This document shows positions 4,132-32,600 of a stretch of DNA of 64,000 bases, one piece after another (within the stretch, counting starts at the first letter, position 1; each line of letters opens with the position of its first letter). Under the pieces are notes generated by a model, which had not been told where the DNA came from, did not search any database, and was given only the letters and a program-made list of their open reading frames with translations. This stretch comes from Gammaproteobacteria bacterium (GTDB taxonomy: Bacteria > Pseudomonadota > Gammaproteobacteria > GCA-001735895): contig JBNKUM010000048.1 of assembly GCA_050298595.1 (NCBI GenBank), forward strand, positions 32,001 through 96,000. The letters run 5' to 3'. A program made the position numbers and the translations under genes.

Positions 4132-4374
4132 TTATTGTCCCCCGACCTTGAAGCGGATGTTTAAACAGTTAAAAGAAAGTGGTATTAAGAAGAAATTCCG
4201 GATTTGTTTATCTAATACAAGCATACGATCCTCAATCCATTGCCTTCGATGTTTGTAATCATGTCCAGTCTGATTATCTTTGCCGCAGAGAAAGGTACGT
4301 CGAACGTAGCGTGAGGTGCAGTGGTAATAAGGGGTGGCCTCGAGAGAAACCTGAGTCTTCCTGGCTTTAGGCAT
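4132..4374 (-). pseudogene. Truncated Y1/RAYT-type (IS200-like, REP-associated) transposase, N-terminal ~55 aa only
   Basis: [31 protein letters not shown]...HRRQWIEDR matches the family N-terminus; similarity is lost afterwards, before the HUH and Tyr motifs. Confidence 0.8.
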
Positions 4375-4591
4375 AATGTGCTCCTTGCGTTGAGTCAATG
4401 GATTTTACGTTACCGTTGATCTATAGTAGCGTTAAGCTTCAAAAAGTGGATGTCCCAAAAAGATTAGTAAATTGGATAAAAGCCATCGATACAGCATGGC
4501 AAATTGGCATCAGAGCTATCAGGAGCCATGCAATAAAATGATCACCGCAATACAATCCCCTATTATTAAAGAGTGTGCCCATCGCGGCATA

Positions 4592-4650
4592 GTCCAACAG
4601 TCATTTATACAACGTGCTGTGCACTTTGTATAAATACTAAGCTGTTATGC
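4592..4650 (+). repeat. attC site, 59 bp
   Basis: GTCCAAC (4592-4598) ... ATTTATACAA / TTGTATAAAT inner stem ... GTTATGC (4644-4650). Confidence 0.75.
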
Positions 4651-4667
4651 TTCAAGAAGGATGTCGT

Positions 4668-5114
4668 ATGAAAGAAGAAATATCGCTTAGAGCTGCGGCC
4701 ATGGATGATGCGGATATGCTACTCGAATGGCGCAATGATCCAGGAGCAAGAAAAGCCAGCCACAATACGGCTGAAGTTCAGAGGATTGAACACATATCGT
4801 GGTTATCACAGACACTCAGCAATCCCAATCGAAGGCTATACGTCGCTGAAGAATACGGCGTTCCTGTCGGCACTATTCGAGCAGATTTTGCGGATGGTGT
4901 ATGGGAACTGTCATGGACGGTATCTCCGAAAGCAAGAGGGCGAGGGGTAGCAAAACACATGGTTGCTGAGATGGCAAATCAAATCTCGGAACCAATCCGA
5001 GCAGAGGTTAAAATTGGAAACATTGCGTCGGCGCGAATTGCCGAATATGCAGGTATGGAATTTGAGCGAGAGACTGGTGGTGTGCTTCATTACAAGAGAG
5101 CAGCACTAGGATGA
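4668..5114 (+). CDS. GNAT family N-acetyltransferase (cassette gene)
   Basis: Motif A VSPKARGRGVA and motif B NIASARIAEYAG; ATG 4668 preferred because 4647 lies within the attC core. Confidence 0.85.
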   Translation: MKEEISLRAAAMDDADMLLEWRNDPGARKASHNTAEVQRIEHISWLSQTLSNPNRRLYVAEEYGVPVGTIRADFADGVWELSWTVSPKARGRGVAKHMVAEMANQISEPIRAEVKIGNIASARIAEYAGMEFERETGGVLHYKRAALG

Positions 5115-5126
5115 ACATGAGGCATA

Positions 5127-5417
5127 ATCGGGATAGAGAGCTACTCAAGTAGCCCCCTCCCACAGCACCGTACATACGTGTCCGTATACGCCGCCTGACC
5201 TGTTATTAACTGAGATACTTCATCGGGCAAATGAATTCATATCAAGTGCCTATCGGGCCGTAGCCGGATGGTGAATCTTGCACCATAGCCTACGCACGGA
5301 GATGAGTCCTATCTTTTCGAAATGTGCATTGTTCAAACCAGCATTGCTCGCCAGTGTCTTCGACTGTCGCCAGTAACTTTTACGCGATAGCCCCAGACTG
5401 ATGGCATCAGGTTTTCG
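5127..5417 (-). mobile_element. Group IIC(-attC) intron 3' remnant: IEP C-terminus plus domains V and VI
   Basis: Minus strand reads ...AISLGLSRKSYWRQSKTLASNAGLNNAHFEKIGLISVRRLWCKIHHPATAR*, then D5-like CGTATACGGACACGTATGTACGGTGCTGTGGGAGG and D6 ending CTATCCCGAT joined to TATGC of the cassette inverse core. Confidence 0.85.
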
Positions 5418-5585
5418 CTGAAAAATTGAAAGTAACTCAATATCTGGAAACTTTCCGCCTATTCTGGTACAACCGTTTCAATGGATTCTGGACGAAGAAT
5501 ATGCTAAGTTTTTGAAATTGTAAGGAAATAACAATAAAAAGTGGTCTATACATGCTTAAAAATTCGTTATTAATTCCCCGGGATA

Positions 5586-5642
5586 GGCCGCAAGTTGCGG
5601 TAATTAGATGCCGCAACTTGCGGCCCAATTAGAATGTTAGCT
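5586..5642 (+). other. Putative attI-like recombination site preceded by a perfect 15-bp inverted repeat
   Basis: GGCCGCAAGTTGCGG (5586-5600) / CCGCAACTTGCGGCC (5611-5625), then GTTAGCT (5636-5642), complementary to AGCTAAC ending the next cassette; no upstream RYYYAAC, so not an attC. Confidence 0.55.
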
Positions 5643-5662
5643 GTAAAAAATGGAGTCCCATC

Positions 5663-6343
5663 GTGTTTGTAGGGAAAAAAGCACTACTGCTCGATATGAA
5701 CAGCACATTTATGTTTGACGAGGACAGATTCGGCGATTCCGAAGATTTCTCGGTGCACTATTCCAAGATAGGCGGAAAACTTCCGCAAGTTGAAATTAAT
5801 ATGATTGTGCGGGCTGTGTACGAGTACCTGGACGCTCGGTACCCAGACGAAAACTATCGGCATAGTTTCCCATCTATGGAAAGTGCAATACGCGAGGTTG
5901 CCGATAAAACTTTGAGCGGAGATGAGATCAAAAAAATTATTAATACCTTCGCCTTCCACGAACTTGGTTCTATCCCCAAAGAATACGCCGCAGCACTTCA
6001 TGAATTGCGGAAACGCTTTACGTTGGCAGCCGTCATCGACATCTGGGCACCAAAAACAGCATGGTTAAAAGAGTTCGAGCGCGCGGATATTTCAGGCCTG
6101 TTTTCCGCCACCTCGTTCTCCTCCGATCATGGTATGGTAAAGCCATCGCCGAGGCCCTTTGAGTTAGTGTTGAGCCAACTTGGAATGGAGAAATCTCAAG
6201 CCATTGTGGTCGGTGACTCCCCGCGAAGAGACCTTGGTGGTGCGAAGAGCGCTGGCATTGATTGCATATTGGTTGGTGGTGCTGAACATCCCGGCGCACT
6301 GAAAAGCTTTAACAACTTGCTAGAGTTATGCAACGTAATCTAA
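5663..6343 (+). CDS. HAD-superfamily hydrolase (cassette gene)
   Basis: Motif I LLLDMNSTF, motifs III/IV KPSP...VVGDSPRRDLGGA. Confidence 0.85.
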   Translation: MFVGKKALLLDMNSTFMFDEDRFGDSEDFSVHYSKIGGKLPQVEINMIVRAVYEYLDARYPDENYRHSFPSMESAIREVADKTLSGDEIKKIINTFAFHELGSIPKEYAAALHELRKRFTLAAVIDIWAPKTAWLKEFERADISGLFSATSFSSDHGMVKPSPRPFELVLSQLGMEKSQAIVVGDSPRRDLGGAKSAGIDCILVGGAEHPGALKSFNNLLELCNVI

Positions 6344-6347
6344 ACAC

Positions 6348-6407
6348 AGCTAACAAATCACCCCAGCCAACGCCAAAAAGCGGCGCGACAGAGCTTTAAC
6401 GTTATGC
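6348..6407 (+). repeat. attC site, 60 bp
   Basis: AGCTAAC (6348-6354), inner CGCC/GGCG stem, GTTATGC (6401-6407). Confidence 0.85.
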
Positions 6408-6429: not shown

Positions 6430-6867
6430 ATGAGCTCGGCATTGTTACCAATTCATCTCTCCTTTGTAGGATTATGGTTGGGGTGTGTGCTTACAGAGGC
6501 GTTATTTGAGCGGGCATTGCTTGGGAAAGGTACAGAACAGGTGCTTACGCTTGTTGCGCTCCACAAGCGTGTTGATCTGATCGTGGAGATCCCCGCCTTT
6601 GTTACTGTTCTGATTACAGGCGCTCTAATGTACTCGTCGGAAACTACAAGTGGCCTGATTCACACAAAGATTGCGTTCGGCCTTCTAGCTATTGCTGCGA
6701 ACGTATATTGCGTATGGTTGGTTTTCCAGCGGGCAGTAGCCGCAGAAGAAGGAAATTGGAAAGAGTTTGACCGCCTTGACCATAAACAACATAAGTACGG
6801 AGCTGTTGTGCTTTTTGCAATTATCGCAGCTTTGGTCATCGGGGTGTCCGTCTATGGCAACGTATAA
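6430..6867 (+). CDS. Hypothetical membrane protein, ~4 TM helices (cassette gene)
   Basis: GAGG RBS, hydrophobic segments; stop codon lies within the attC inverse core. Confidence 0.75.
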   Translation: MSSALLPIHLSFVGLWLGCVLTEALFERALLGKGTEQVLTLVALHKRVDLIVEIPAFVTVLITGALMYSSETTSGLIHTKIAFGLLAIAANVYCVWLVFQRAVAAEEGNWKEFDRLDHKQHKYGAVVLFAIIAALVIGVSVYGNV

Positions 6868-6930
6868 CTATACGCTCCAGCCTATGTCAGGCCGCAACGC
6901 GGCCTTCCTCGGCTCAGCGTCGCGGTATGA
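6862..6930 (+). repeat. attC site, 69 bp, core mutated (GGT instead of GTT)
   Basis: GTATAAC ... ACGCTCCAGCC / GGCTCAGCGT arms, AGGCCGC/GCGGCCT inner stem ... GGTATGA. Confidence 0.8.
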
Positions 6931-7926: not shown

Positions 7927-8035
7927 ACATAACAATGGCGCTTAACTCGGACACATCTACGCAATGTAAATTTTGTGCTTTGAATAGCAAAAAATATCCA
8001 TTGCTACGGCGTGTCGGTTGGCGCTGTCGTTAGAA
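7927..8035 (+). repeat. attC site, 109 bp
   Basis: ACATAAC ... GGCGCTTAAC / GTTGGCGCT arms, GACAC/GTGTC and GCAATG/CATTGC stems ... GTTAGAA. Confidence 0.85.
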
Positions 8036-8052: not shown

Positions 8053-8694
8053 ATGAATCAGATACTAATATACTCAGACAGTCTCACTTGGGGAATTATC
8101 CCTAACACAAGGAAACGACTTACATACGATAAAAGATGGCCCGGGGTATTCGAAAAATCTTTATCTGAAATGGGCAAAAATATTCGTGTTATTGAAAATT
8201 GTCTTAATGGACGGAGAACAGCATGGAGTGACCCATTCAAAGAGGGTAGAGATGGTTCAGTCGGTTTGGCACAAGTTATTGAAATGAACTCCCCCTTAAA
8301 GCTTGTAATCTTAATGTTGGGAACTAATGATTTTCAATGTATGCATGATAATAATGCCTGGTTATCATCCCAGGGAATGGCTAAGTTAATAAACATAGTA
8401 CGTCAAGCCTCAATAGAGCCTGGAATGCCAGCGCCAGAAATATTGGTCGTTTCTCCACCAAAAATAATAAAACCCAAGGGTTCAATTGCACCAAAATTTA
8501 GTGGTGCTGAGAATAGAGATATCGGTCTTGCCTCTGAACTTGAACGAATCTCAAAGGAATATTCGACTTATTTCTTTGACACAGCTACCGTGACAGAGGC
8601 AAGTGCTGTTGATGGTATTCACCTGGATGAAAATCAACATTTAGAACTAGGTAAAGCAATTGCAAAGGCTGTTGCAGATGTCATCACCTTCTAA
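8053..8694 (+). CDS. SGNH/GDSL hydrolase (cassette gene)
   Basis: Blocks YSDSLTWG, LNGR, MLGTND, DGIH; the upstream GTG at 8011 lies inside the attC, so ATG 8053 is used. Confidence 0.9.
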   Translation: MNQILIYSDSLTWGIIPNTRKRLTYDKRWPGVFEKSLSEMGKNIRVIENCLNGRRTAWSDPFKEGRDGSVGLAQVIEMNSPLKLVILMLGTNDFQCMHDNNAWLSSQGMAKLINIVRQASIEPGMPAPEILVVSPPKIIKPKGSIAPKFSGAENRDIGLASELERISKEYSTYFFDTATVTEASAVDGIHLDENQHLELGKAIAKAVADVITF

Positions 8695-8753
8695 CAATGC
8701 CTTCAAAGATGGACGCCGCACAAACTCGGCGCTCTTTAACTTAACCGTTATGC
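8689..8753 (+). repeat. attC site, 65 bp
   Basis: TTCTAAC (exact complement of the cassette's left GTTAGAA), CGCCG/CGGCG stem, GTTATGC (8747-8753). Confidence 0.85.
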
Positions 8754-8765
8754 GTAGGAAGAAAC

Positions 8766-9194
8766 GTGACTAAAAAAATTGATTTTGATTTGGCTTGGGG
8801 CGGTTACTATGTGTGTTCCGAAAAAGACAGTGATGCTTTTTCAGTTATTCGAATACTTGACTTCAATCGTGATGCATACCATGCCTCGCTTTATGACGAG
8901 TCCTTCGACGACATTCCAAGCGCTATTGATATCGAGAAGCTTTCTCCATTTATAGGTCATGCGCCAATAGATGCAAAAGGTCTTTTAAAATATGAAATGT
9001 TGACCCTAATAGATAGAAAGCCATTAACTCGAAGTGACTTAGAAGGTTATATGTACTATCTGGCTGAGTTTGATGTTTCTGAAGATGAAAGGGAAGAACT
9101 TACTAATTCGTTAATAAATTTTAGTAATGAAAAACCTATGGCTTTGAGCCTATATCTTTCTGAGGGTGAACTTCAAATTGAAGAGAGGGTATAA
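8766..9194 (+). CDS. Acidic hypothetical protein (cassette gene)
   Basis: 142-aa ORF with AGGA RBS, bounded by attC sites. Confidence 0.7.
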   Translation: MTKKIDFDLAWGGYYVCSEKDSDAFSVIRILDFNRDAYHASLYDESFDDIPSAIDIEKLSPFIGHAPIDAKGLLKYEMLTLIDRKPLTRSDLEGYMYYLAEFDVSEDEREELTNSLINFSNEKPMALSLYLSEGELQIEERV

Positions 9195-9209: not shown

Positions 9210-9288
9210 ACATAAGAATAGGGTCAAGTTGCTCCCTGAGGTCACGGGAATCTGGCTACCTCTCGCCCCCTTACCCTGTGTGTTATGT
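9210..9288 (+). repeat. attC site, 79 bp, inverse core mutated (AAG instead of AAC)
   Basis: ACATAAG ... AGGGTCAAG / CTTACCCT arms with one extrahelical base ... GTTATGT. Confidence 0.75.
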
Positions 9289-9296
9289 GAATCAGT

Positions 9297-9599
9297 ATGA
9301 GTAGGCTAGCTCCTAAACAGAAAGAACTCTGGGAGAAAATCCAAAGAATACTCTGGGAAAAGTGGGACCCAATCGGAGTCTACGAAGAAGATAGTGAATG
9401 GGACGATGAGTACGATAGCTATGCGCCCCACATATTTAGATTGGTAATTGAAGGAAATGATCATATTCGTATTGCAGCGTCATTAACTTCAACAATAAAT
9501 CAAAATATTGGGTTGAGTGCCAGTAATAATAATGAGCACGACTTAAAAGTAGCTAAGTTAATTGTTCAGGCTAAAAAAGAAATTCTAGGCAGATACTGA
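9297..9599 (+). CDS. Hypothetical protein with WDPIGV...DEYDSY motif (DUF1871-like; cassette gene, attC lost)
   Basis: Motif LWEKWDPIGV...DDEYDSYA; runs directly into the second intron remnant. Confidence 0.7.
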   Translation: MSRLAPKQKELWEKIQRILWEKWDPIGVYEEDSEWDDEYDSYAPHIFRLVIEGNDHIRIAASLTSTINQNIGLSASNNNEHDLKVAKLIVQAKKEILGRY

Positions 9600-9768
9600 G
9601 ATACTTCATCGGGCAAATCGAATTTCATGTCAAGTGTCAATCGGGCTGTAGCCGGATGGTGAATCTAACACCATAGCTTCACATGAAGATGAGTCTTATC
9701 TTTTCGAAATGTGCATTGTTCAAACCGGCATTGGTCGCCAGTAACTTTTACGAAGAGCGCCGAGGCTC
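9595..9768 (-). mobile_element. Second, more decayed copy of the group II intron IEP 3' end
   Basis: Aligns with ~5209-5400 (ACTGAGATACTTCATCGGGCAAAT...CTTTTCGAAATGTGCATTGTTCAAACC...); has an 18-bp deletion and lacks D5/D6. Confidence 0.8.
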
Positions 9769-9883
9769 AGGTCTTGTCTTTTGACTATCAACCTGACAGT
9801 AGAGACTAGACCTACAGGGCGGACCTACTTAAGATAGAAACTACACCCATATATTGAAACACATGAGTAGTGAGATTTAATCC

Positions 9884-10492
9884 ATGAAAAATTTTTTTAA
9901 AAAATCTATATTAGGTGGTCTGGTTGTTATATTGCCTGTTGCCATTTTAGCGTTTTTCTTTAAATGGCTATTCAGGTTAGTAACAGATCTTATCCAGCCA
10001 CTGACTGACTATGCATCTGGAAGGTATTCTGTCCCTGAAATTGTCGCGGACATGCTTGTTATTATGATTATCGTGTTTAGCTGTTTTTTTGTGGGCGTAC
10101 TGGTCAGCACTAAACTTGGCAATTTTCTGCATCGGACATTTGACGATGTATTGCAACAGATGGCACCCGGTTACCGAATGGTTAAGGAAGTGGTCGTGCA
10201 ATTATTTGGTTCGTCAGGGAAATCGCCTTTTTCTAACGGTATCGTCGCCCGGGTCAGAATATTTGGTGCTGATTGCCCGACAGAAATAACGGGGTTAGTG
10301 GTAGACCGTTCTATTGATGATACCTTTACTGTTTTTGTGCCGACAGGACCTAACCCTACATCAGGCAATATCTACCACGTGCAAAAAAATCAGGTCACTT
10401 TGTATCCTGATATTAAACTGGATTCTGCAATGCGTACGGTGATTGCCTGTGGTGCAGGTTCTGCTGAAATATTTAAAGATAAGGTGGTTTGA
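9884..10492 (+). CDS. DUF502 family membrane protein
   Basis: N-terminal GLVVILP TM segments; C-terminal VFVPTGPNPTSG signature. Confidence 0.9.
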   Translation: MKNFFKKSILGGLVVILPVAILAFFFKWLFRLVTDLIQPLTDYASGRYSVPEIVADMLVIMIIVFSCFFVGVLVSTKLGNFLHRTFDDVLQQMAPGYRMVKEVVVQLFGSSGKSPFSNGIVARVRIFGADCPTEITGLVVDRSIDDTFTVFVPTGPNPTSGNIYHVQKNQVTLYPDIKLDSAMRTVIACGAGSAEIFKDKVV

Positions 10493-10973
10493 CAGAGTCT
10501 AAGGTGGAGCCACGATCAAGTCATGTCTTTTGCCTATTCACCTAACACGGATTTAAGGAGAGAGATTCTATGATCAGTGCCACTTCATTTAACTGCATGA
10601 CCAGGCTGTGGATAGTTTTTTTGTCATCAATAAGCGCTAATCCAAAAAAACGAAGCCCCCTCCTCCCCAATATCTTCAGAGAGGGGAAATAGGATTCATA
10701 GCCTCAAGATAAGACGATTCCTTTAAATACTGCCGCTGTCCGTCCCAGCCAAGAATCTGGTCATGATTATCGACATCAAATTTTAACTTACCAACCAATT
10801 TGAATGGCTCCTGATACCAGATCTGATTGTCTGAATCAAAATAGATAGTGCCATAATAAATCTTGTTGAGCCTCATGTAATTGAACACTCCTCGACCTTT
10901 CTGCCGCTTTTTAATATAAAAGGAGTCGGATATAGGAAAGCACTAAATAATGAGCTAATTAAAGATGAATTAG

Positions 10974-11124
10974 GGAAGATCTGAATAATTCATCCATGAA
11001 TTATCAGAGCACGAAAAATGAAAAGTGTGATTTTCGTTTTTCTCACAAAATCAATGGCTTGTAACCATCAATTTTGGCGGCACATCCCTGTACCGCAGGA
11101 TCCTCTGAATTAATCAGAGATTCC
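10974..11124. mobile_element. 151-bp MITE with IS5-like ends and TTAG target duplication
   Basis: Terminal IRs GGAAGATCTGAATAATTCA and (reverse complement) GGAATCTCTGATTAATTCA, 16/19 identical; TTAG at 10970-10973 and 11125-11128. Confidence 0.8.
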
Positions 11125-11328
11125 TTAGAAAGTTCTGAGAGGTTTCTTAATCCCTCGAAATTTGAAGACTATTTTGTAGTCGCTAAGGCTGCTGACAAAG
11201 AACATGAAATTACAATAGAATTTATGATAATTAATCCGTCACAACAGTATGTTTCCGAGCTTAACAAAGATAACAATTAATAATGATTGAAGGCATAACA
11301 AGGTCAATTCAGATGGATAGCAGGCGAT

Positions 11329-24312: not shown

Positions 24313-26505
24313 ATGGAAATCAAAGTTAATTTCCTCGACAATCTCAGACTTGAAGCCAGGTTTGATGACTTTACTGTGATCAGTGATCAACCCATTCGTT
24401 ATAAGGGGGATGGTTCAGCGCCTGGTCCGTTTGATTACTTCCTGGCGTCATCCGCGCTTTGTGCGGCCTACTTTGTGCGGGTGTATTGTCTGTCACGCGA
24501 TATTCCAACTGACGATATCCGCCTGTCACAGAATAATATTGTTGATCCCGAGAACCGATACAACCAGATTTTCCAGATTAAGGTTGAGCTTCCAGAAAGT
24601 ATTTCGGAAAAACACCGTCAGGGCATCTTGCGCTCAATTGATCGCTGTACTGTTAAGAAGGTGGTTCAGCAAGGCCCCGAGTTTACTACCGAACTGGTTG
24701 AGAACCTGGAACAGGATGCTCAGGCCATGCTAATGGCCCAACCCGATGCTGATTCCAGCACATTGATTCTGGGCAAGGATTTACCCCTTGAAGACACTAT
24801 CGCAAATATGACGGGTATTCTGGCCGGGCTGGGGATGAAGATTGAAATCTCATCCTGGCGCAATATCGTGCCCCACGTGTGGTCACTACATATTCGTGAT
24901 GCGGCGTCGCCGATGTGCTTTACCAATGGCAAGGGTGCCACTAAAGAAAGTGCGCTTTGCTCAGCGCTGGGTGAATTTATCGAACGCCTTAGTTGCAATT
25001 TCTTTTACAACGATCAGTATTTTGGTGATGAGATTGCACATAGTGATTTTGTGCATTACCCGAATGAAAAATGGTTTCCCCTGCAAGCTGATGATGCGCT
25101 TCCACAGGGCATCCTGGATGACTACTGCCTGGACATTTTTAATCCCGAGGGTGAACTTCGAGGCTCTCATTTAATTGATACGAATTCAGGCCTGATTGAA
25201 CGAGGGGTTTGTTGTATCCCCTATCGACGTCATTCCGATGGCGAGCTTGTGTACTTCCCATCAAATTTGATAGAGAACCTTTTTTTAAGCAACGGTATGA
25301 GTGCGGGTAACAATCTGTATGAGGCTGAGGTTCAATGCCTGTCAGAGATCTTCGAGCGTGCGGTAAAGAGACAGATCATACAGGAAGAAATCGCCCTGCC
25401 CGATGTACCGCAGCAGGTGCTGGAAAAATACCCGGATATTATGCAGGGCATTCAGGCGCTAGAGACGCAGGGCTTCCCGGTATTAATCAAGGATGCATCA
25501 TTGGGTGGTCAATTTCCCGTCATGTGCGTAACGCTGATGAACCCTAGAACCGGTGGTGTGTTTGCCTCGTTCGGAGCTCACCCCAGTTTTGAGGTTGCGC
25601 TGGAACGTAGCTTAACCGAGCTGTTGCAGGGGCGTAGTTTTGAAGGTCTGAATGATGTACCCCGACCTACCTTTAATAGCCTGGCCGTGACTGAACCAGA
25701 AAATTTTGTGGAGCATTTTATTGATTCAACAGGTGTAATTTCCTGGCGTTTTTTCAGTGCTAAACAGGATTATGAATTCTATGAATGGGATTTTTCAGGC
25801 ACTAACCAACAGGAGAGTGATTACCTGTTCTCAATTCTAGAGAACCTGGGTAAAGAAGCGTATGTTGCCGTGTTTGATAACCCAGGTGCCGCAGCCTGCC
25901 GTATTCTTGTTCCTGACTATTCTGAAATCTATCCGGTAGAGGATCTGATCTGGGACAATACGAACAAGGCACTGCAATACCGCGCAGACATTTTGAATCT
26001 ACATGCGTTGAACAATGAGTCCTTAGCCAGTTTGTTAGCGCGTCTGGAGGAAAACCAGCTGGATAACTACACCGATATTCGAACCCTTATTGGTATTGAG
26101 TTTGATGAAAATACAGTGTGGGGACAACTGACTATCCTGGAACTGAAAATCCTGATCAACCTGGCTTTGAGTGAACTTGAGGAAGCCCTTGATCTGGTAG
26201 CAGAGTTCCTGCAATACAATGACAACACCGTCGAGCGCGGATTATTCTATCAGGCAGTGCACACCGTATTGGAGATCATGCTGGATGAAGAACTGCAGCT
26301 TGAGGATTTCATTAGCAACCTGCAGCGAATGTTTGGTGAAGAAACCATGGCCAACGTTGTCGGCTCGGTAAATGGTCAGGTTAAATTCTTTGGGTTAACC
26401 CCAACCAGCATGAAACTGGAGGGCCTGGACAAACATCTTCGGCTTATAGAGAGCTATAAGAAGCTGCACAAGGCCCGCGCAACTATGGCGAAAGCTGCCA
26501 GTTGA
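24313..26505 (+). CDS. OsmC-domain / YcaO-domain protein
   Basis: OsmC part DQPIRYKGDGSAPGPFDYFLAS..LC and RCTVKK; YcaO part NGKG...SALGEFIER, SNGMSAGN, EIFER, ALERSLTELLQGR. Confidence 0.92.
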   Translation: MEIKVNFLDNLRLEARFDDFTVISDQPIRYKGDGSAPGPFDYFLASSALCAAYFVRVYCLSRDIPTDDIRLSQNNIVDPENRYNQIFQIKVELPESISEKHRQGILRSIDRCTVKKVVQQGPEFTTELVENLEQDAQAMLMAQPDADSSTLILGKDLPLEDTIANMTGILAGLGMKIEISSWRNIVPHVWSLHIRDAASPMCFTNGKGATKESALCSALGEFIERLSCNFFYNDQYFGDEIAHSDFVHYPNEKWFPLQADDALPQGILDDYCLDIFNPEGELRGSHLIDTNSGLIERGVCCIPYRRHSDGELVYFPSNLIENLFLSNGMSAGNNLYEAEVQCLSEIFERAVKRQIIQEEIALPDVPQQVLEKYPDIMQGIQALETQGFPVLIKDASLGGQFPVMCVTLMNPRTGGVFASFGAHPSFEVALERSLTELLQGRSFEGLNDVPRPTFNSLAVTEPENFVEHFIDSTGVISWRFFSAKQDYEFYEWDFSGTNQQESDYLFSILENLGKEAYVAVFDNPGAAACRILVPDYSEIYPVEDLIWDNTNKALQYRADILNLHALNNESLASLLARLEENQLDNYTDIRTLIGIEFDENTVWGQLTILELKILINLALSELEEALDLVAEFLQYNDNTVERGLFYQAVHTVLEIMLDEELQLEDFISNLQRMFGEETMANVVGSVNGQVKFFGLTPTSMKLEGLDKHLRLIESYKKLHKARATMAKAAS

Positions 26506-26525
26506 TACAGTATTAAAGAATTGCT

Positions 26526-29500
26526 TCAGCCCTTATGTGCTAGCAACTCTTCAAACTCAGGCAGGGCAACGGGTTTACTAAATAAATACCCCTGATAGGT
26601 GGTGCAGCCATGTTGTTCCAGAAATTGTCTCTGTGCTTCGGTTTCCACGCCCTCAGCAATAACCGATAGTCTCAGACTCTGAGCCATTGTGATAATGGTC
26701 TGAGTCACCACAGCATCATCTGAATTCTCTGGCAAATGGTCAATAAAGGATCTGTCAATCTTAAGCTGCCCTAGAGGTAGCCGAGTCAGGTAGGACAGGG
26801 ATGAATAACCCGTGCCAAAATCATCCAGTGAAAACTCCACACCTAATGCCTTGAGAGCATGCATTTTTTTGATCGAGTCTTCGATATCATTGATCAAAAG
26901 ACTTTCTGTCAGTTCGATTTTCAGATATCTGGGCGGTGCCTGTGTCTGCTCCAGTACCTGACGCACCTGATCGACAAAATCGGTCTGCTGAAACTGATAC
27001 TGACTGACATTAACCGCCAGTTGTAATTCACTACAGTGCGCATCTTGCGACCAGATTTTAAGTTGTTTACAGGCAGTTTCCAGCACCCATTGACCAATAG
27101 GCAGAATAAGCCCACTTTCCTCGGCTAACGGAATAAACTGATCTGGCGACACCAGACCACGTTCTGGGTGGTTCCAGCGTATCAGAACCTCTGCACCTAT
27201 AATGCCGCGCTCATTATCGACCTGAGCCTGGTAGTGAAGACAAAACTGCTGATCCTTGATACCGTGCCGTAGTGCGATCTCAAGAGCTGCACGTTCATCC
27301 AGAGAGGTCTGAATTTGTGGATCGAAGTAGCGTAGCGTATTGCGCCCATCATTCTTAGCCTGATACATCGCTATGTCGGCCTGTTTCAGTAGCTCCTGTG
27401 CGCTACTTTGAGTACCCACGAACAAAGTAATCCCTATGCTCGGGGTTATATGGTGTATCTGCTCTGCAAGCTTATACGGCTGACCGAGTGCCTGAAATAC
27501 CTTCTCAGCCACGCGCCTGAGCTTTTCAGAAGCCTCCTGAGAGTTTGTACCCAGATCTTTTAGCATGATCATAAATTCATCGCCACCAAAACGCGCAAGT
27601 GTATCTTCTTTACGCACACAGCTGAGAAGACGCTGGGCGACCTCGATCAATAATTGATCCCCCGCATCGTGCCCGCGGGTATCGTTAAGCACCTTGAAGT
27701 TATCCAGATCGATATACATAAGGGCTCCTCGGTTATCGCTGCGCTCAGCAGCTGATAACGCCTGCTCAAGCCGATCCAGAAGCAGCCGCCGGTTGGGTAA
27801 CTGGGTTAACGAGTCATGATAGGCGAGATGCTCAATCTTCGCTGCTGCCGCCTTGCGCTCTGTAATATCAGTCATGGTACCCACATAATGAGTGACCTTA
27901 CCACTATCCGTCTGTACTGCGGTGATGTTCAACCACACCGGATAGATCTGGCCATTTTTATGGCGATTCCAGATTTCATCCTGCCAGGCACCATTTTGAC
28001 GAATACTGTCCCACATTTTCTGGAAATAATAGTCATCATGTTGATCTGATTTAAGCATATTCGGGCTAGCACCCACCGCCTCCTCAGACGAATAACCGGT
28101 AATCTCGCTAAAGGCAGCGTTGACACGCAGGATGCGAAACTGTGCGTCGGTGATAATGATACCTTCCTGGGCTTCGAATGCCGTGGCCGCAATTCTGATC
28201 TGCTCTTCGGCCTTGTCATGTTCGATACGTCTGCGCAGAGTGACGATACCGAAGGCCAGATCCTCTGCAAGCTCTGATAGCAGGCGTTTCTCTTCCTCTG
28301 GAAAGGCATTCGTTTTTGAAGAGTAGATACACAGGACACCGAACACCTGGTCATTTTCGTCCTTCAGGGGTAAGCCTATACAGGATTGAAAACCATTTTT
28401 CAGGGCCAAATCACGCCAGGGTATTGCCAATGGATCTGTGGCAAAGTTGTCTATGCAGGCTATTTCCCCGCTGCGGATGGCTCTTCCAGTGACACCTTGC
28501 CCGTATACCGTATCCCCCCAGCTGAACTTCGCCTGTAACAGGCTATCATCCTCGGTACCGGCCAGTCCCACCGGAAGGATTGTTTTATCTACGTCGTTTT
28601 GCCGATACCCCACCCAGGCCAGGTGGTAGCCTGCCTCATCACAGATAATACGGCAGATATCATCGAGCAAATCCTGTTCGTCTACGGCGCGCACCAGAAC
28701 CTGATTACAATCACTGATCGCACGTAGTTCCCGATTCAGGCGTTGCAATGTCTCTTCGTCTCTTTTACTTTGGGTAATATCGCGACCAATGGCCAGCACA
28801 CCGACCACACTCCCTTGCGTATCATGCTCCGCATAAAAGCGCAGTTGATGATTGCGCAATTCACCAGTAAAGTTTTTAAGAACCATCTCCATTTCACTTG
28901 ACTCACCCGTTTCAATGACCCGCTGCACATAACCTTCAACCTCAGTATTTAACGCTATTAGGTCATCTTGGCCTGAGTCCGCAGGAGTGCTTTGAGCAAA
29001 TTCCACCGGGGTCTTGCCTAGCAATCGCTCGACATCAATATTCAGGTTCTGCTTTATTGCAGGGTTGTAGTAGATAACGCGGCAGTTCCGATCATAACGG
29101 AGGATATTATCGGGAAAGTTTTCCGCCAGACTACGGTATTCCAGCTCACTCCTGGCAAGCGCTTGCTGTGTCTGTTTGCGCTCGATGATTTCTTTTTTCA
29201 AACTGTCATTGGCTGCTGCCAATTCAGCGGTGCGTTCTACAACGCGTTGTTCCAGATCCTGCTTCGCTTCCTCAAGTTTTAGCGTCAATTCCCTCAGGTG
29301 CAGATGCGTGCTAACTCTTATTAACACCTCCTCCTGTTGCAGCGGCTTGGTGATGTAATCCACTCCACCTGCTTTAAAACCCTTGATCTTGTCTTCCGTT
29401 TGCGTCATTGCCGTCATAAAAATCACCGGGATATCCCGCGTTTTTATATCCGCTTTCAACAGGCGGCAGATTTCATAGCCGTCCAAACCCGGCAACATCA

Positions 29501-29678
29501 CATCCAGTAGAATCAGGTCGGGGAGAGTAGTTTGGGCGATCTTAAGCCCAGTCTCACCGCTACCGGCAACCTTGATTTGAAAACCGGATTGAACCAGATG
29601 CTCAGCCACCACCGCCAGGTTGGCCGGAACATCATCCACAACCAGAATGCTGTGCTTATGCGGATCAGTGATATTCAT
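26526..29678 (-). CDS. REC-PAS-GAF-PAS-GGDEF-EAL c-di-GMP signalling protein
   Basis: LVVDD and LLDVMLP receiver; RFGGDEF; EVLIRW; DDFGTGYSS; AEGVET. Confidence 0.94.
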   Translation of the reverse strand: MNITDPHKHSILVVDDVPANLAVVAEHLVQSGFQIKVAGSGETGLKIAQTTLPDLILLDVMLPGLDGYEICRLLKADIKTRDIPVIFMTAMTQTEDKIKGFKAGGVDYITKPLQQEEVLIRVSTHLHLRELTLKLEEAKQDLEQRVVERTAELAAANDSLKKEIIERKQTQQALARSELEYRSLAENFPDNILRYDRNCRVIYYNPAIKQNLNIDVERLLGKTPVEFAQSTPADSGQDDLIALNTEVEGYVQRVIETGESSEMEMVLKNFTGELRNHQLRFYAEHDTQGSVVGVLAIGRDITQSKRDEETLQRLNRELRAISDCNQVLVRAVDEQDLLDDICRIICDEAGYHLAWVGYRQNDVDKTILPVGLAGTEDDSLLQAKFSWGDTVYGQGVTGRAIRSGEIACIDNFATDPLAIPWRDLALKNGFQSCIGLPLKDENDQVFGVLCIYSSKTNAFPEEEKRLLSELAEDLAFGIVTLRRRIEHDKAEEQIRIAATAFEAQEGIIITDAQFRILRVNAAFSEITGYSSEEAVGASPNMLKSDQHDDYYFQKMWDSIRQNGAWQDEIWNRHKNGQIYPVWLNITAVQTDSGKVTHYVGTMTDITERKAAAAKIEHLAYHDSLTQLPNRRLLLDRLEQALSAAERSDNRGALMYIDLDNFKVLNDTRGHDAGDQLLIEVAQRLLSCVRKEDTLARFGGDEFMIMLKDLGTNSQEASEKLRRVAEKVFQALGQPYKLAEQIHHITPSIGITLFVGTQSSAQELLKQADIAMYQAKNDGRNTLRYFDPQIQTSLDERAALEIALRHGIKDQQFCLHYQAQVDNERGIIGAEVLIRWNHPERGLVSPDQFIPLAEESGLILPIGQWVLETACKQLKIWSQDAHCSELQLAVNVSQYQFQQTDFVDQVRQVLEQTQAPPRYLKIELTESLLINDIEDSIKKMHALKALGVEFSLDDFGTGYSSLSYLTRLPLGQLKIDRSFIDHLPENSDDAVVTQTIITMAQSLRLSVIAEGVETEAQRQFLEQHGCTTYQGYLFSKPVALPEFEELLAHKG

Positions 29679-29684
29679 AGCTGA

Positions 29685-32600
29685 TCAACTTAAAAATTGC
29701 TTTATAAAAGCTTCAATATGATCCATATCAAATCCTTTGGCCAGTTTTAGTAACTGCTGGGCAAAAGGGGCGTAGGACTCATCTAGCGCTTGCAAACGCT
29801 TTGCCTGATCCTGAATTTCGAAAATCTGTCCTTCTTCTGCTAACTTATACAGCAGCTGCAATTCTTTGATTGGTGGTGCCACTATGGACACTTCCTGCTC
29901 AGCCTCTGCCTCAGCGTAAACCCATTTCAAGTCCAATTTCCTTGCCAGCAAATCCAGCAGATGCTTCGGCTTGATCGGCTTGGGCAGAAATGCGTCACAG
30001 CCTGCTTGAATACTTTTTCCCTTGTCTGAATTGGACACACTGGCCGAAACGGCGATAATAATCAGTTTCTTCAACTCAGGCCGCTGTCGTATCTCCTGGG
30101 CTGCTTCAATACCGGATTTTATCGGCATCACCAAATCCATCACAATGGCATCGGGCTGCCATTGCAAAGCCTGATTCATGACTAGCTGTCCATCTTCAAG
30201 CGTATGTATCTCAAAACCCAGGGGTTCCAGCAAATCCACCAGTAGCATACGGTTATAGAGTTTATCATCAACTACCAGTAGCTTGCGGCGCTTTCCTTTA
30301 TAGCCCACGATGTTTTCGATCTTTGGCATGTCTTCCTCAAGCTCAGCCTCGCTCACTGGTAGAGTCACATCAAACCAGAAGCTAGTGCCCCGGCCCAGTT
30401 CGCTCTCCACCAGTAACTGTCCACCCATTTCCTGCACAAGCTTCTGGCTGATGGCCAGGCCCAATCCAGATCCATTAGAATACAGTCTGGCTTCACCGGA
30501 CTGTTCAAAGGGCTTGAAGATCAACTCTAACTGATCTTCGGAGATACCTATTCCAGTATCTTGCACGCAAAAACGCAGAGCGACTTCCGAAGTAGTGGCC
30601 TGATCTTTATCAAGCACCTCTACCGTCAGAGTAACATTGCCCTGTTTGGTGAATTTGACTGCATTGCCTAACAGATTGAGCAAGACCTGGCGCAAACGCG
30701 TCTCGTCAGCCTGGATCACGCTAGGCAAGGGTGAGAGATTCTCGCAGGTCAGTGTCAGGTTCCTGGCTTCGTGCCTGGAAAGGACAATATCCATAATCTG
30801 CTGCAGGAAGCTGGGCAGGTGGAAGGGTGAGGAATGCAGCTCCAGCCTGCCAGCTTCGACTTTTGCCAGATCGAGGATGTCGTTGATCAGCATCAGCAGA
30901 TGCTCTCCACTTTGTTCCATAACGTTCAGATCATCGGCCATCTGGCCCGTGTTACCGGCTCGTTGTTTGAGGATATAAGCGTAGCCTAATATTGCGTTGA
31001 GCGGTGTACGAAGCTCATGGCTCATATTAGCAAGAAAAACACTCTTGGCCTGGTTAGCTATCTCGGCCTTTTCCTTGGCTATGCGCAGTTCTTCGGTACG
31101 TTGGAAAACTTCTTCCTGCAGATGATGGCGATAATGTCTCAGTTCATCCTCCTTCAATTTCTGCTCGGTGATATCCTGCACCGTACCGATGGAACGGAGC
31201 GGCTTTCCGCTCGAGTCATAATCATGCTCGCACATCTCGCGCACATACTTGATCCGCTTATCCGGGAACAATAAGCGATGCACAATATCATAGGGCTGCC
31301 TGTTCGCGAGCGACTCTGTGTAAGCGTTGTTAACCATCTCGCGATCTTCGGGGTGAATCGTCTCCAGAAAGGCCTCGTAGGAGGCACCGAATTTCTGCTG
31401 GTCTATTTCAAAAATCTCGAATATCTCATCCGACCAGGTCAACTGGTTTTCAATCAGATCAAGCTCCCAGTTACCGAGATGTGCGAGGCGCTGTGCCTCT
31501 ACCAGTCGTCGTTGGCTCTCACGCAAGTTACGCAACACCAGCAGGCTAGTCAGTGCATCGGTAAGTCGCCGACCAATCTCTTCCAGCAACTGTTCCTCTG
31601 CTTTACTCCAGACTCGTGCGTTGGAACACTGCTGAAGCGCAAATAGCCAGGGCTTGCCCACTTTAGGAAAAAGAGCCTGGCAAATCATCGACTTGATAGA
31701 TAAGCGCTGGTGAATTTCACTAGACAGCTGCCACTTTGTGTCAGCACCGACCTGAAGCACACCGGGGTGACTCACAATATGTTGGATTACTGCCGTCATG
31801 CTGTCATCTAGCAGTAACTCTTCATTCAGGTCTCCAGATCCCTCATACTCCAAACGTGTGCGTTGCATGGGGATAGTCCAGGCTGTTGTAGCAGGGTCGC
31901 AGGGATACATTAGAAATACACGGTCGCAGTCGAATATCTCAAGTACCTCATCCAGCACGTCGCGCAGCATGGTTTCGAGATCACCAGCGCCCTGGATGGC
32001 GCGGTTAACCCGGTCCATATTGACCAGAAACTCAGCATGCTGCCTACGCTCCTGTTCAGCCTTTTTAAATTCGGTGATATCTCGCCCTTCTGGAATCAGT
32101 TGAATAACACGGCCTGTGGAATCGGTGATGGGTGAAAGGGAAAAGTCGACATGGTGTATATTGCCATACCTGTCGGGATGGGTGACCTCGAAGCGCATAA
32201 ACTCTCCGCCCGCTACCCGACGAATCGCATCCTTCAGTTGTTGTTGCAGTTCAGTGGAATGACTCCACCAGGGTGTCTCCCAGAACGGTTTGCCGATGAC
32301 CTCAGTCTCCTCGATTCCACTAAAATTCAGTGCGGTACGGTTGACTTTAAGGACTATTCCATCCACTGATAACAGGCCAATAAACTGGAAGGTCTGGTCG
32401 ATGATTGCCTGTAGCTTCTGTTCGCTGCTGCGCAGTTCCTCCTGCATATGCATGTGTTCAGTCACGTCTCGTGAAAGAAGTAGAAATCGAGCTTCACTGC
32501 CAGGAACGTCGGATGGCTTTTTCGAAATGGATAACTCAAACCAACGGGTACCTTCCGGCAGGTCGAGACTCAGGATATTACCGAACGACAGACCTTTCTT

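What the first reader, a model, noticed from the sequence alone, without database searches (positions are those of the whole stretch)
5122..5417. Group IIC-attC intron remnant at the exact canonical attC insertion point
Seen: after the GNAT stop the inverse core begins GCATA and is cut off. On the bottom strand a D5/D6-like RNA ends ...CTATCCCGAT joined to TATGC, preceded by a maturase-like C-terminus ending IHHPATAR*. Established: class C-attC group II introns insert into the attC bottom strand at TTGT/TA, opposite to cassette orientation; the surviving 3' junction fits this. Inference: the 5' part of the intron, most of the RT and the rest of the attC were deleted, and the D5 triad appears mutated (CGG for CGC), so it is inactive. 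The ORF track misses this element.
Basis: partly seen in the sequence, partly recalled or inferred. Interest (0 to 1): 0.7.

Follow-up and report, generated by a model that had tools for sequence, protein, structure and literature searches.

The report
Truncated attC-intron remnant in integron
This is the dead 3' stub of a mobile group II intron that had inserted into the recombination site behind an integron gene cassette and was later cut down by a deletion that also removed a neighbouring integrase gene: an ordinary decay product of known elements.

Summary
Observation confirmed, interpretation supported and extended. Window 5127-5414 (minus strand) is the last 289 nt (about 15%) of a ~1.9-kb group IIC-attC-type intron. 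It holds D5/D6 (5127-5196; Rfam Intron_gpII 31.6 bits, E 3e-4, under the 40-bit cut-off; sister copies score 43-48 bits). It also holds the last 61 codons of the intron-encoded protein, 72% identical to the C-terminus of a 454-aa RT/maturase in a full-length relative. The intron's 3' end abuts GCATA (5122-5126). That is the stub of the R'' box expected for the GNAT cassette, which begins at G|TTATGC (4644-4650). Full-length relatives sit at TTGT|TA in attC bottom strands, as known integron introns do.

New points:
- The 5' break is fused at 5406-5416 to the intI-attI intergenic region of a second integron that has lost intI. Its attI crossover is G|TTAGCT at 5636, and the genome holds six copies of this region, each with a different first cassette.
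- The same fusion occurs at 88.6% identity in a congener, with other genes on both sides, so it is old.
- The genome holds 11 fragments of this intron family and no intact copy.
- The D5 triad is CGG here and CGC in 16 of 18 copies.

Known kind of element; low to moderate interest.

The parts
4592..4650 (+). attC of the cassette that precedes GNAT: R'' GTCCAAC (4592-4598) and R' GTTATGC (4644-4650). The crossover G|TT at 4644|4645 marks the start of the GNAT cassette.
   Evidence: Motif positions. The bottom strand folds at -14.2 kcal/mol, z -3.60, with 1 of 200 shuffles folding as well.
4645..5126 (+). GNAT cassette. It starts TTATGC. The ORF runs 4647/4668-5114 and matches Acetyltransf_3 at E 3.6e-12. 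It ends in the R'' stub GCATA (5122-5126), which was cut by the intron.
   Evidence: The 5 surviving letters are the exact complement of the cassette's own first letters (TATGC of TTATGC).
5127..5196 (-). Intron domains 5 and 6; the 3' splice site is at 5127. The D5 triad reads CGG instead of CGC, and there is one further change in the D5 loop.
   Evidence: Rfam RF00029 at 31.6 bits, E 3.2e-4, model positions 1-77 of 77. Compared with sister copies.
5197..5249 (-). Intron sequence between the IEP stop codon and D5 (the 3' part of domain 4).
   Evidence: Continuous homology of 84-94% to full-length and partial copies.
5250..5414 (-). C-terminal end of the intron-encoded RT/maturase. The stop codon is at 5250-5252. 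The protein alignment runs to 5435, but DNA homology to other intron copies ends at 5414-5416.
   Evidence: The stretch equals intron positions 1607-1895 of the 1895-nt L038 intron.
5406..5416 (.). Deletion junction between the intron remnant and the attI-side repeat. These letters (ATCAGGTTTTC) match both parents: the intron copies up to 5414-5416, and the C39 copy of the attI region from 5406.
5406..5642 (+). Truncated intI-attI intergenic region (delta-attI). The attI core GTTAGCT is at 5636-5642, with the crossover at 5636|5637. It contains a 15-bp-arm palindrome at 5586-5625. No intI is present.
   Evidence: Six copies in the genome are 85-90% identical, and all end at GTTA followed by unrelated sequence. 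The C53 and C78 copies continue leftward into an IntI N-terminus.
5637..6401 (+). First cassette of the downstream array (HAD-family hydrolase, ORF 5663-6343). It starts TTAGCT. Its attC has R'' AGCTAAC (6348-6354) and R' GTTATGC (6401-6407).
   Evidence: R'' is the exact complement (7 of 7) of the core at the cassette's start. The fold of this attC is not better than shuffles (z 0.89).
9595..9782 (-). Second, internal fragment of the same intron family (intron positions about 1668-1813). It lacks D5/D6 and has a ~20-nt internal deletion. It lies where the R'' of the 9297-9599 cassette should be.
   Evidence: blastn at 89% over 149 nt to 5209-5355; alignment; tblastn pieces; no Rfam hit.

Best explanation
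A ~1.9-kb group IIC-attC-type intron retrohomed into the bottom strand of the attC site of a GNAT gene cassette. It entered between GT and TATGC of the R'' box, antisense to the cassette, as this lineage is known to do.

Later one deletion of at least about 2.7 kb joined intron position ~1607 to a point roughly 40-50 nt upstream of the intI start codon of the next integron downstream. The join shows a few letters of microhomology. The deletion removed:
- the intron's ribozyme domains 1-4;
- the RT and X domains of its protein;
- the rest of the GNAT attC;
- intI itself.

What remains is a 289-nt non-functional stub: the IEP tail, the end of D4, and D5/D6. It is sandwiched between the R'' stub and a truncated attI region that still heads a cassette array. 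The stub has since decayed further, with the D5 catalytic triad changed from CGC to CGG.

Shown: identity of the pieces, their boundaries, orientation, the 3' junction, the absence of intI and of an intact parent copy, and the age of the junction. Inferred: the order of events, and that a single deletion made the junction.
For: Intron identity.
- D5/D6 covariance match over the full model, E 3e-4.
- IEP tail 72% identical to a full-length RT/maturase that carries RVT_1 and GIIM.
- 84-94% DNA identity over 283-298 nt to copies in congeneric genomes and in 7 full-length introns.

Lineage.
- Full-length relatives L038 and L036 hit the same Rfam families as the known integron intron L077: RF02001 and RF00029, plus RF01998 in L038 and L077.
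- Their IEP has no endonuclease domain.
- They sit at TTGT|TA (6 of 7), inside hairpin-forming, attC-like 5' exons.
- The best plasmid matches of the peptide are ltrA genes lying antisense between cassettes of class 1 integrons.

attC context.
- Cassette start and R'' are complementary for GNAT (5 of 5 surviving letters), HAD (7 of 7) and SGNH (7 of 7).
- A canonical attC lies just upstream of GNAT.

Deletion into attI.
- Six genomic copies of 5406/5418-5639 all end at GTTA with different downstream sequence, and two of them run into intI.
- Contig C48 has no IntI match.

Decay.
- D5 triad CGG in 1 of 18 copies.
- No copy with RT sequence of this family in the genome.
Against: - The window's D5/D6 score is below Rfam's gathering score.
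- Only 5 letters of R'' survive. This intron family's 3' exons often start TATG anyway: 4 of 6 3'-end fragments in this genome. The match to the cassette start is therefore weaker evidence than it looks.
- attC identity rests on box motifs and folds, not on a calibrated attC model. Of 6 putative attC bottom strands folded, only 2 beat all but 1 of 200 shuffles, 1 was moderate (5 of 200) and 3 were no better than shuffles.
- Two further cassette/R'' pairs match only 6 of 7 and 5 of 7, and one cassette start could not be found.
- The IEP tree does not resolve a clade joining this family with the two integron introns; they form a polytomy.
- The same junction in G001:C120 has a different gene on its left, starting exactly at GCATA. 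A single local deletion does not explain that by itself.
Confidence: 0.85

Rival explanations
1. The copy was never full length at this site. Target-primed reverse transcription stopped early, and the short cDNA was joined to whatever DNA end was available, as happens with 5'-truncated retroelement insertions.
For: Six fragments in this genome keep the exact 3' end and have different 5' break points: 62, 78, 86, 119, 225 and 289 nt. More such fragments occur in G001. Passages of PMC7923331 propose incomplete reverse transcription for other 5'-truncated integron introns.
Against: Four fragments keep only the 5' end (C108, C66, C96, C75) and one is internal, so decay is not restricted to the 5' side. 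The sequence next to the break is not the remainder of the attC but the promoter side of an attI region whose intI is missing, and a deletion explains both facts at once.
Confidence: 0.07
2. The intron did not insert in the GNAT attC. It inserted behind intI (for example at its terminator), in the same orientation as intI. A short deletion then removed intI and the intron's 5' part. Under this reading GCATA next to the 3' splice site is only the intron's usual target preference.
For: The remnant has the orientation intI would have. Class C introns also use terminators (passage of PMC7923331). In G001:C120 the composite lies next to genes with no recognisable attC upstream.
Against: GNAT is preceded by a canonical attC ending G|TTATGC. 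It is followed, 7 nt after its stop codon, by the complementary GCATA. This is the layout seen behind blaIMP-4 in L077.
Confidence: 0.05
3. Chance resemblance: the region contains no intron-derived sequence.
For: The Rfam score is below the gathering score, and Pfam finds nothing in the peptide.
Against: There is 84-94% identity over ~290 nt to the 3' ends of full-length introns that carry RT ORFs and D1-D4 matches. The protein alignment has E 3e-29.
Confidence: 0.01

Closest known systems
Group IIC-attC introns of class 1 integrons. Examples here: the ltrA-bearing introns behind blaIMP-4 or yjjG (L077, L078) and behind arr-2 (L079). S.ma.I2 of Serratia marcescens is described in PMC3001079 (passages read).
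   Same: - Antisense to the cassettes.
- 3' end ...CCCGAT|TA a few letters after the cassette's stop codon.
- In the full-length relatives: 5' exon ending TTGT, intron start GT(G/A)(T/C)GCCC(G/A)GCATGGGCATG, the same Rfam D1-D4 families, and an IEP with RVT_1 and GIIM but no endonuclease domain.
   Different: The window holds only the last 15% of the element. The IEP tail is 42% identical to that of L077. The host is an environmental gammaproteobacterium with chromosomal arrays, not a clinical plasmid. The tree leaves the relationship unresolved.
UHB.F1, a 5'-truncated group IIC-attC intron in a cassette array from a soda-lake metagenome (PMC7923331, passages read).
   Same: It is a 5'-truncated, non-functional IIC-attC intron lying antisense within a cassette array. 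That paper also notes that fragmented introns outnumber full-length ones in bacterial genomes.
   Different: No fusion to an attI region is mentioned in the passages I read.
Delta-attI-type ('unusual') gene cassettes, with the architecture attC-ORF-delta-attI (PMC12901181, passages read; that paper cites Partridge et al. 2009 for three types of unusual cassette).
   Same: The unit attC(4592-4650)-GNAT-...-truncated attI(5406-5642) has this architecture. It retains about 230 nt of attI-side sequence, comparable to the delta-attI2-238 case named there. It also belongs to the type 'attC disrupted by a class C-attC intron'.
   Different: Here an intron stub lies between the ORF and the delta-attI. 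The attI belongs to an uncharacterised chromosomal integron class. Recombination activity is untested.
Class C group II introns at terminator hairpins. Example here: the copy in Halalkalibacterium halodurans in L049 (the name B.h.I1 is recalled, not taken from a call).
   Same: The same broad IEP clade (19 rows, support 100/99), and a D5 stretch 87% identical over 38 nt.
   Different: These fall in the 11-row group (support 88/98) that excludes the window's family. Their targets are terminators, not attC sites (recalled; the passage of PMC7923331 says class C introns use such hairpins).

Membership tests
Group II intron (any class) | Domain 5/6 structure at the 3' end | tested here: met
   RF00029 matches over the full model at 5127-5196 (-), 31.6 bits, E 3.2e-4. 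This is below the 40-bit gathering score. Sister copies that are 95-96% identical score 43.0 and 45.6 bits.
Group II intron (any class) | Ribozyme domains 1-4 and an RT/maturase ORF in domain 4 (an intact element) | tested here: not met
   No D1-D4 family hit anywhere in the window. Only the last 61 codons of the IEP remain, with neither RVT_1 nor GIIM. It is a remnant, not a working member.
Group IIC-attC intron lineage | Inserted in the attC bottom strand at R'' (TTGT/T), antisense to the cassette | tested here: met
   3' half...CCCGAT|TATGC abuts the stub of the R'' box predicted from the cassette's start, and the remnant is antisense to GNAT. The 5' half is deleted in the window. In 6 of 7 full-length relatives the 5' exon ends TTGT. 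The consensus comes from passages of PMC7923331.
Group IIC-attC intron lineage | IEP falls within the monophyletic attC subset of class C | tested here: inconclusive
   Tree of 22 IEP rows. The family (L036, L025, L038, L039; support 100/100) lies inside the class-C-like clade (100/99). It lies outside the 11-row Bacillota/other group (88/98). Its relation to the two integron introns (L077, L079) is an unresolved polytomy. Only two reference attC introns were on hand.
Group IIC-attC intron lineage | Class C ribozyme type and an IEP without an endonuclease domain | tested here: met
   This could be tested only on full-length relatives. L038 and L036 hit RF02001, as does the known integron intron L077. 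The L038 IEP has RVT_1 and GIIM only. It cannot be tested on the window's stub.
Integron gene cassette / attC site | R'' (RYYYAAC) complementary to the GTTRRRY core at the cassette's start, and a bottom-strand hairpin | tested here: met
   Exact for GNAT (5 of 5 surviving letters), HAD (7 of 7) and SGNH (7 of 7). It is 6 of 7 and 5 of 7 for two others; one start could not be found and one R'' is lost. Folds are mixed: z -3.60, -3.45, -2.16, -1.51, -0.06 and +0.89. No calibrated attC model was available.
Integron (complete) | An intI gene next to attI | tested here: not met
   TIGR02249 finds no match on contig C48. Over the cut-off: C89 and C75 without stops, C99 with two internal stops. The locus is an intI-less attI followed by an array.
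Delta-attI-type cassette | The attC downstream of the ORF is replaced by a truncated attI that IntI can still recombine | not testable with these tools
   The architecture fits. Different first cassettes at the same GTTA in 6 genomic copies and in G001:C120 suggest that the site has been used. Recombination itself needs an assay.

The most novel reading that the evidence does not exclude
The block 'R'' stub + 289-nt intron stub + truncated attI' may be more than debris. It is kept as one piece at 88.6% identity in a congener whose core gene nearby is 89.8% identical, so the block is about as old as the split of the two species. In the two genomes it is joined to a different gene on its left, with the change exactly at the intron's 3' end, and to a different first cassette on its right. 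This is the footprint expected if homologous recombination between intron copies hitches new genes to an integron recombination site. That would be the intron-mediated cassette-formation model described in the Background of PMC7923331 (its reference 8), here with an attI that keeps working in trans after losing its own intI.
Probability: 0.1. Interest if true: 0.6.

Novelty: new member of a known kind. Interest (0 to 1): 0.3.

Why it matters
The finding shows that attC-targeting class C introns have been active in the chromosomal integrons of this environmental gammaproteobacterial genus, not only in clinical class 1 integrons. The genome now holds 11 fragments of one intron family and no working copy. 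The locus is also a natural example combining two of the published 'unusual cassette' types: an attC broken by an intron, and an attC replaced by a truncated attI. It includes an attI that has lost its integrase yet heads different cassettes in two genomes. For annotation, the practical value is that 5127-5414 should be labelled a group II intron fragment. The 75-codon frame is not a gene.

Tried and rejected
- The default Rfam scan of the whole window found nothing. Only the permissive local scan showed the D5/D6 match.
- Pfam on the 75-aa and 54-aa peptides found nothing. The tail lies beyond the GIIM model.
- I first thought residues 1-36 of the peptide were IEP-derived. The own-genome search showed that they belong to another repeat, later identified as the attI-side region.
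- I asked whether 5406-5639 could be the intron's 5' domains left by an internal deletion. I rejected this. Its outer end does not resemble the intron start GTGTG. It is too short. In C53 and C78 it continues into intI.
- A second Rfam scan at 9300-10100 found no D5/D6 in the second fragment.
- The promoter and terminator scan of 4400-5700 gave nothing above the shuffle expectation in the remnant.
- A search for the junction as a degenerate pattern in metagenome contigs gave 0 hits.
- I looked for an intact parent in the genome by blastn with two full-length introns and by tblastn with a full IEP. Neither found one. The other RT genes, C75 (43.6% identical, frameshifted) and C13 (38.6% identical), belong to another group in the tree.
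- The IEP tree was meant to test membership of the attC clade and did not resolve it.
- Supplements were closed. Supplementary Table S1 of PMC12901181 and the additional files of PMC7923331 (the structure of UHB.F1) may bear on how unusual the intron-plus-delta-attI combination is.
- Print search for truncated integron introns: (15 and 14 papers held the terms). I read passages of three papers only. The names Kl.pn.I3 and B.h.I1, and the Dai and Zimmerly compilation of fragmented introns, are recalled and come from no call.

Full report
**What is there**

The GNAT ORF matches Acetyltransf_3 at E 3.6e-12. It ends with TGA at 5112-5114, and GGCATA follows at 5121-5126. From 5127 the minus strand reads as the 3' end of a group II intron. 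A permissive Rfam scan of 4900-5700 gives Intron_gpII at 5127-5196 (-), model positions 1-77 of 77, 31.6 bits, E 3.2e-4. That is below the family's 40-bit gathering score, which is why the default scan of the whole window listed nothing. A search of the whole genome finds three matches over the cut-off: C18 at 48.2 bits, C74 at 45.6 and C100 at 43.0. The C74 and C100 copies are 96% and 95% identical to the window's sequence.

Upstream of D5 on the minus strand lies a stop-to-stop frame, 5250-5477, ending WCKIHHPATAR*. Its last 61 residues are 72% identical (44 of 61, E 3e-29) to the C-terminus of a 454-aa frame in locus L038. That frame carries RVT_1 (E 1.7e-36) and GIIM (E 8e-13). The residues are 42% identical (20 of 48) to the annotated ltrA of an intron that lies behind blaIMP-4 in a plasmid integron. 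Pfam sees nothing in the peptide itself, because it lies downstream of the GIIM domain.

**Extent of the remnant**

blastn of two full-length relatives against the genome maps the window's copy to intron positions 1607-1895 of 1895, which is window 5414-5127. Alignment with three copies from congeners places the loss of homology at 5414-5416. The remnant is therefore 289 nt, about 15% of the element. It comprises the IEP tail, the end of domain 4, and D5 and D6.

**What kind of intron**

A scan of reference genomes with a longer IEP fragment from a congener (L025, 216 aa, including YADD) returned 42 loci. Seven of them held introns that I aligned: L036, L038, L039 and L043-L046. Four were measured at 1893-1904 nt. 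All seven start GTGTGCCCGGCATGGGCATG and end CTATCCCGAT. Their 5' exons end in TTGT in 6 of 7 (TGGT in L039), and all 7 have 3' exons starting TA. Several 5' exons show attC-like inverted repeats.

The known integron intron in L077 reads ...TTTGT|GTACGCCCAGCATGGGCATG at its 5' junction and ...CTACCCGAT|TAGAAA at its 3' junction. It lies antisense to blaIMP-4. A second and a third plasmid example lie antisense between cassettes next to intI1. L038, L036 and L077 all match Rfam RF02001 and RF00029. Passages of PMC7923331 state that group IIC-attC introns insert at R'' of the attC bottom strand, in the consensus TTGT/T, opposite to cassette transcription. PMC3001079 says the same of the bottom strand and orientation.

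An IEP tree of 22 rows puts the family in a well-supported class-C-like clade (19 rows, 100/99). It lies outside an 11-row group (88/98) that holds the Bacillota copies and this genome's other two RT genes. Its relation to the two integron introns is an unresolved polytomy. Clade membership is therefore consistent but not shown.

**Is the target an attC?**

In an integrated cassette the first letters (TTRRRY) belong to the same core that is complementary to that cassette's own R''. The results in the window are:

| Cassette | Start | R'' | Match |
|---|---|---|---|
| GNAT | G\|TTATGC, 4644-4650 | GCATA (stub), then the intron | 5 of 5 surviving letters |
| HAD | G\|TTAGCT, 5636-5642 | AGCTAAC, 6348-6354 | 7 of 7 |
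| SGNH | G\|TTAGAA, 8029-8035 | TTCTAAC, 8689-8695 | 7 of 7 |
| Membrane protein (6430-6867) | G\|TTATGC, 6401-6407 | GTATAAC, 6862-6868 | 6 of 7 |
| ORF 8766-9194 | G\|TTATGC, 8747-8753 | ACATAAG, 9210-9216 | 5 of 7 |
| AraC-type | not found | ACATAAC, 7927-7933 | not assessable |
| ORF 9297-9599 | G\|TTATGT, 9282-9288 | replaced by a second intron fragment | lost |

The site just before GNAT has a canonical R'' (GTCCAAC, 4592-4598). Its bottom strand folds better than all but 1 of 200 shuffles (z -3.60). The AraC-cassette site does likewise (z -3.45). One site is moderate (z -2.16), and three are no better than shuffles (z -1.51, -0.06, +0.89). I had no calibrated attC model.

One caution applies. 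This intron family's 3' exons often begin TATG: 4 of the 6 fragments in this genome that keep the 3' end. The 5-letter match at GNAT is therefore partly explained by target preference alone.

**The other side of the break**

Window 5406/5418-5639 is a separate repeat with five more copies in the genome (C39, C53, C57, C78, C23), 85-90% identical. All six copies end at GTTA, followed by unrelated sequence: GTTAGCT, GTTATCA, GTTATGC, GTTATAC, GTTATGT and GTTATGG. In C53 and C78 the repeat continues leftward into the N-terminus of an integron integrase on the opposite strand. It is therefore the intI-attI intergenic region, with the crossover at 5636|5637.

In the window this region is cut about 40-50 nt short of where intI would start and is fused to the intron stub. 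Contig C48 has no IntI match, whereas C89 and C75 carry stop-free matches over the family cut-off. The letters 5406-5416 match both parents, which suggests a microhomology join.

The simplest history is one deletion running from inside the intron to just upstream of intI. It would have removed intron positions 1-1606, the rest of the GNAT attC, and intI. The resulting architecture is attC-GNAT-(stub)-truncated attI. This corresponds to the 'delta-attI-type' unusual cassette and to the 'attC disrupted by a class C-attC intron' type, both listed in PMC12901181 (passages).

**Age and relatives**

Of 41 genomes searched (40 relatives plus G000), 8 have matches to the remnant. They are confined to the same family, and 6 of the 7 relatives with a match are in the same genus. 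A query spanning the junction matches end to end only in G000 and in G001:C120 (14 genomes searched). The G001 copy (L088) is 88.6% identical from GCATA to the attI end (window 5122-5600). It has a different ORF on its left and a different first cassette on its right, and that cassette again obeys the start/R'' rule. A core gene beside it is 89.8% identical to its G000 counterpart on another contig. The fusion is thus about as old as the two species.

G001 also has a 725-nt contig that is 99.7% identical to window 4583-5200. G001 is rated 6% contaminated, so I draw nothing from this contig. How the left neighbour came to differ exactly at the intron's 3' end is not explained by the deletion. 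Homologous exchange with another intron copy is the obvious candidate (inference).

**Decay**

Besides the window's copy, the genome holds:
- five fragments that keep the 3' end: C100 (119 nt), C85 (225), C76 (86), C74 (78) and C60 (62);
- one internal fragment, at window 9595-9742, extending to about 9782 at the protein level;
- four fragments that keep the 5' end: C108, C66, C96 and C75.

No copy carries RT sequence of this family. The assembly is 98.6% complete in 119 contigs, so a copy collapsed in unassembled repeats cannot be excluded.

The D5 triad is CGC in 16 of the 18 copies caught by my pattern, CAC in one (C85), and CGG only in the window. The change produces a G-G mismatch in the D5 stem.

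**Verdict**

The element is a decayed member of a known lineage at its known target. Truncated copies of such introns in cassette arrays are already in print (PMC7923331). The added points are modestly interesting and do not change the category: the fusion to an intI-less attI, the age of that fusion, and the genome-wide pattern of fragments.

Noticed in passing
window 9595-9782 (-): A second fragment of the same intron family lies in the same array. It is internal (intron positions about 1668-1813), has a ~20-nt deletion between direct repeats, and lacks D5/D6. The stop codon of ORF 9297-9599 lies inside it, so that cassette's end and its R'' box were probably lost.
   Followed up: partly
window 5406-5642; G000 C39:1435-1667, C53:3262-3483, C57:30901-31123, C78:58015-58208, C23:32988-33167: There are six copies of one intI-attI intergenic region in a single genome, each followed by a different first cassette. 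Two copies (C53, C78) continue into a short IntI N-terminal piece, and a third (C57) keeps only the first few intI codons. The genome also has two stop-free IntI matches over the family cut-off (C89, C75), one with two internal stops (C99), and several further fragments. It is a genome with many partly decayed integron platforms.
   Followed up: partly
window 5586-5625: A perfect 15-bp-arm palindrome (GGCCGCAAGTTGCGG, 10 nt, CCGCAACTTGCGGCC) lies about 10 nt before the attI core. Copies C78, C23 and G001:C120 lack 23 nt and keep a single arm. Its role is unknown; it could be an IntI or regulator binding site.
   Followed up: no
window 4132-4466 (-): A multi-copy element (more than 20 blastn matches across the genome, 70-91% identical) holds an 88-aa frame with no Pfam match. 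To my eye its N-terminus looks like an IS200/REP-associated tyrosine transposase; this is recalled, not tested. It sits between the histidine-kinase gene and the attC at 4592.
   Followed up: no
G000 C75:90850-92101, beside IntI at C75:87838-88698: A different, frameshifted group II intron RT (43.6% identical to the L038 IEP) lies about 2 kb from a stop-free IntI match that passes the family cut-off. A third RT, a 474-aa open frame, fills most of the 3.7-kb contig C13. In the tree both fall in the other class-C-like group.
   Followed up: partly
window 10956-11128: A ~170-nt repeat is shared with C75:87620-87785 (just past the 3' end of intI there), C48:2213-2377, C47, C24 and others. Its nature is unknown.
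   Followed up: no
G001:C62 (four matches at 24806-29851): In the congener G001, four ~147-nt pieces of the same intron 3' region recur about every 1.6 kb on one contig. This looks like a tandemly repeated unit or an array with a remnant in every cassette.
   Followed up: no
L038 6991-7269 (-): The Methylococcales MAG contig that carries a full-length relative also has a second group II intron of another type (Rfam group-II-D1D4-6, 77 bits) about 2 kb away.
   Followed up: no
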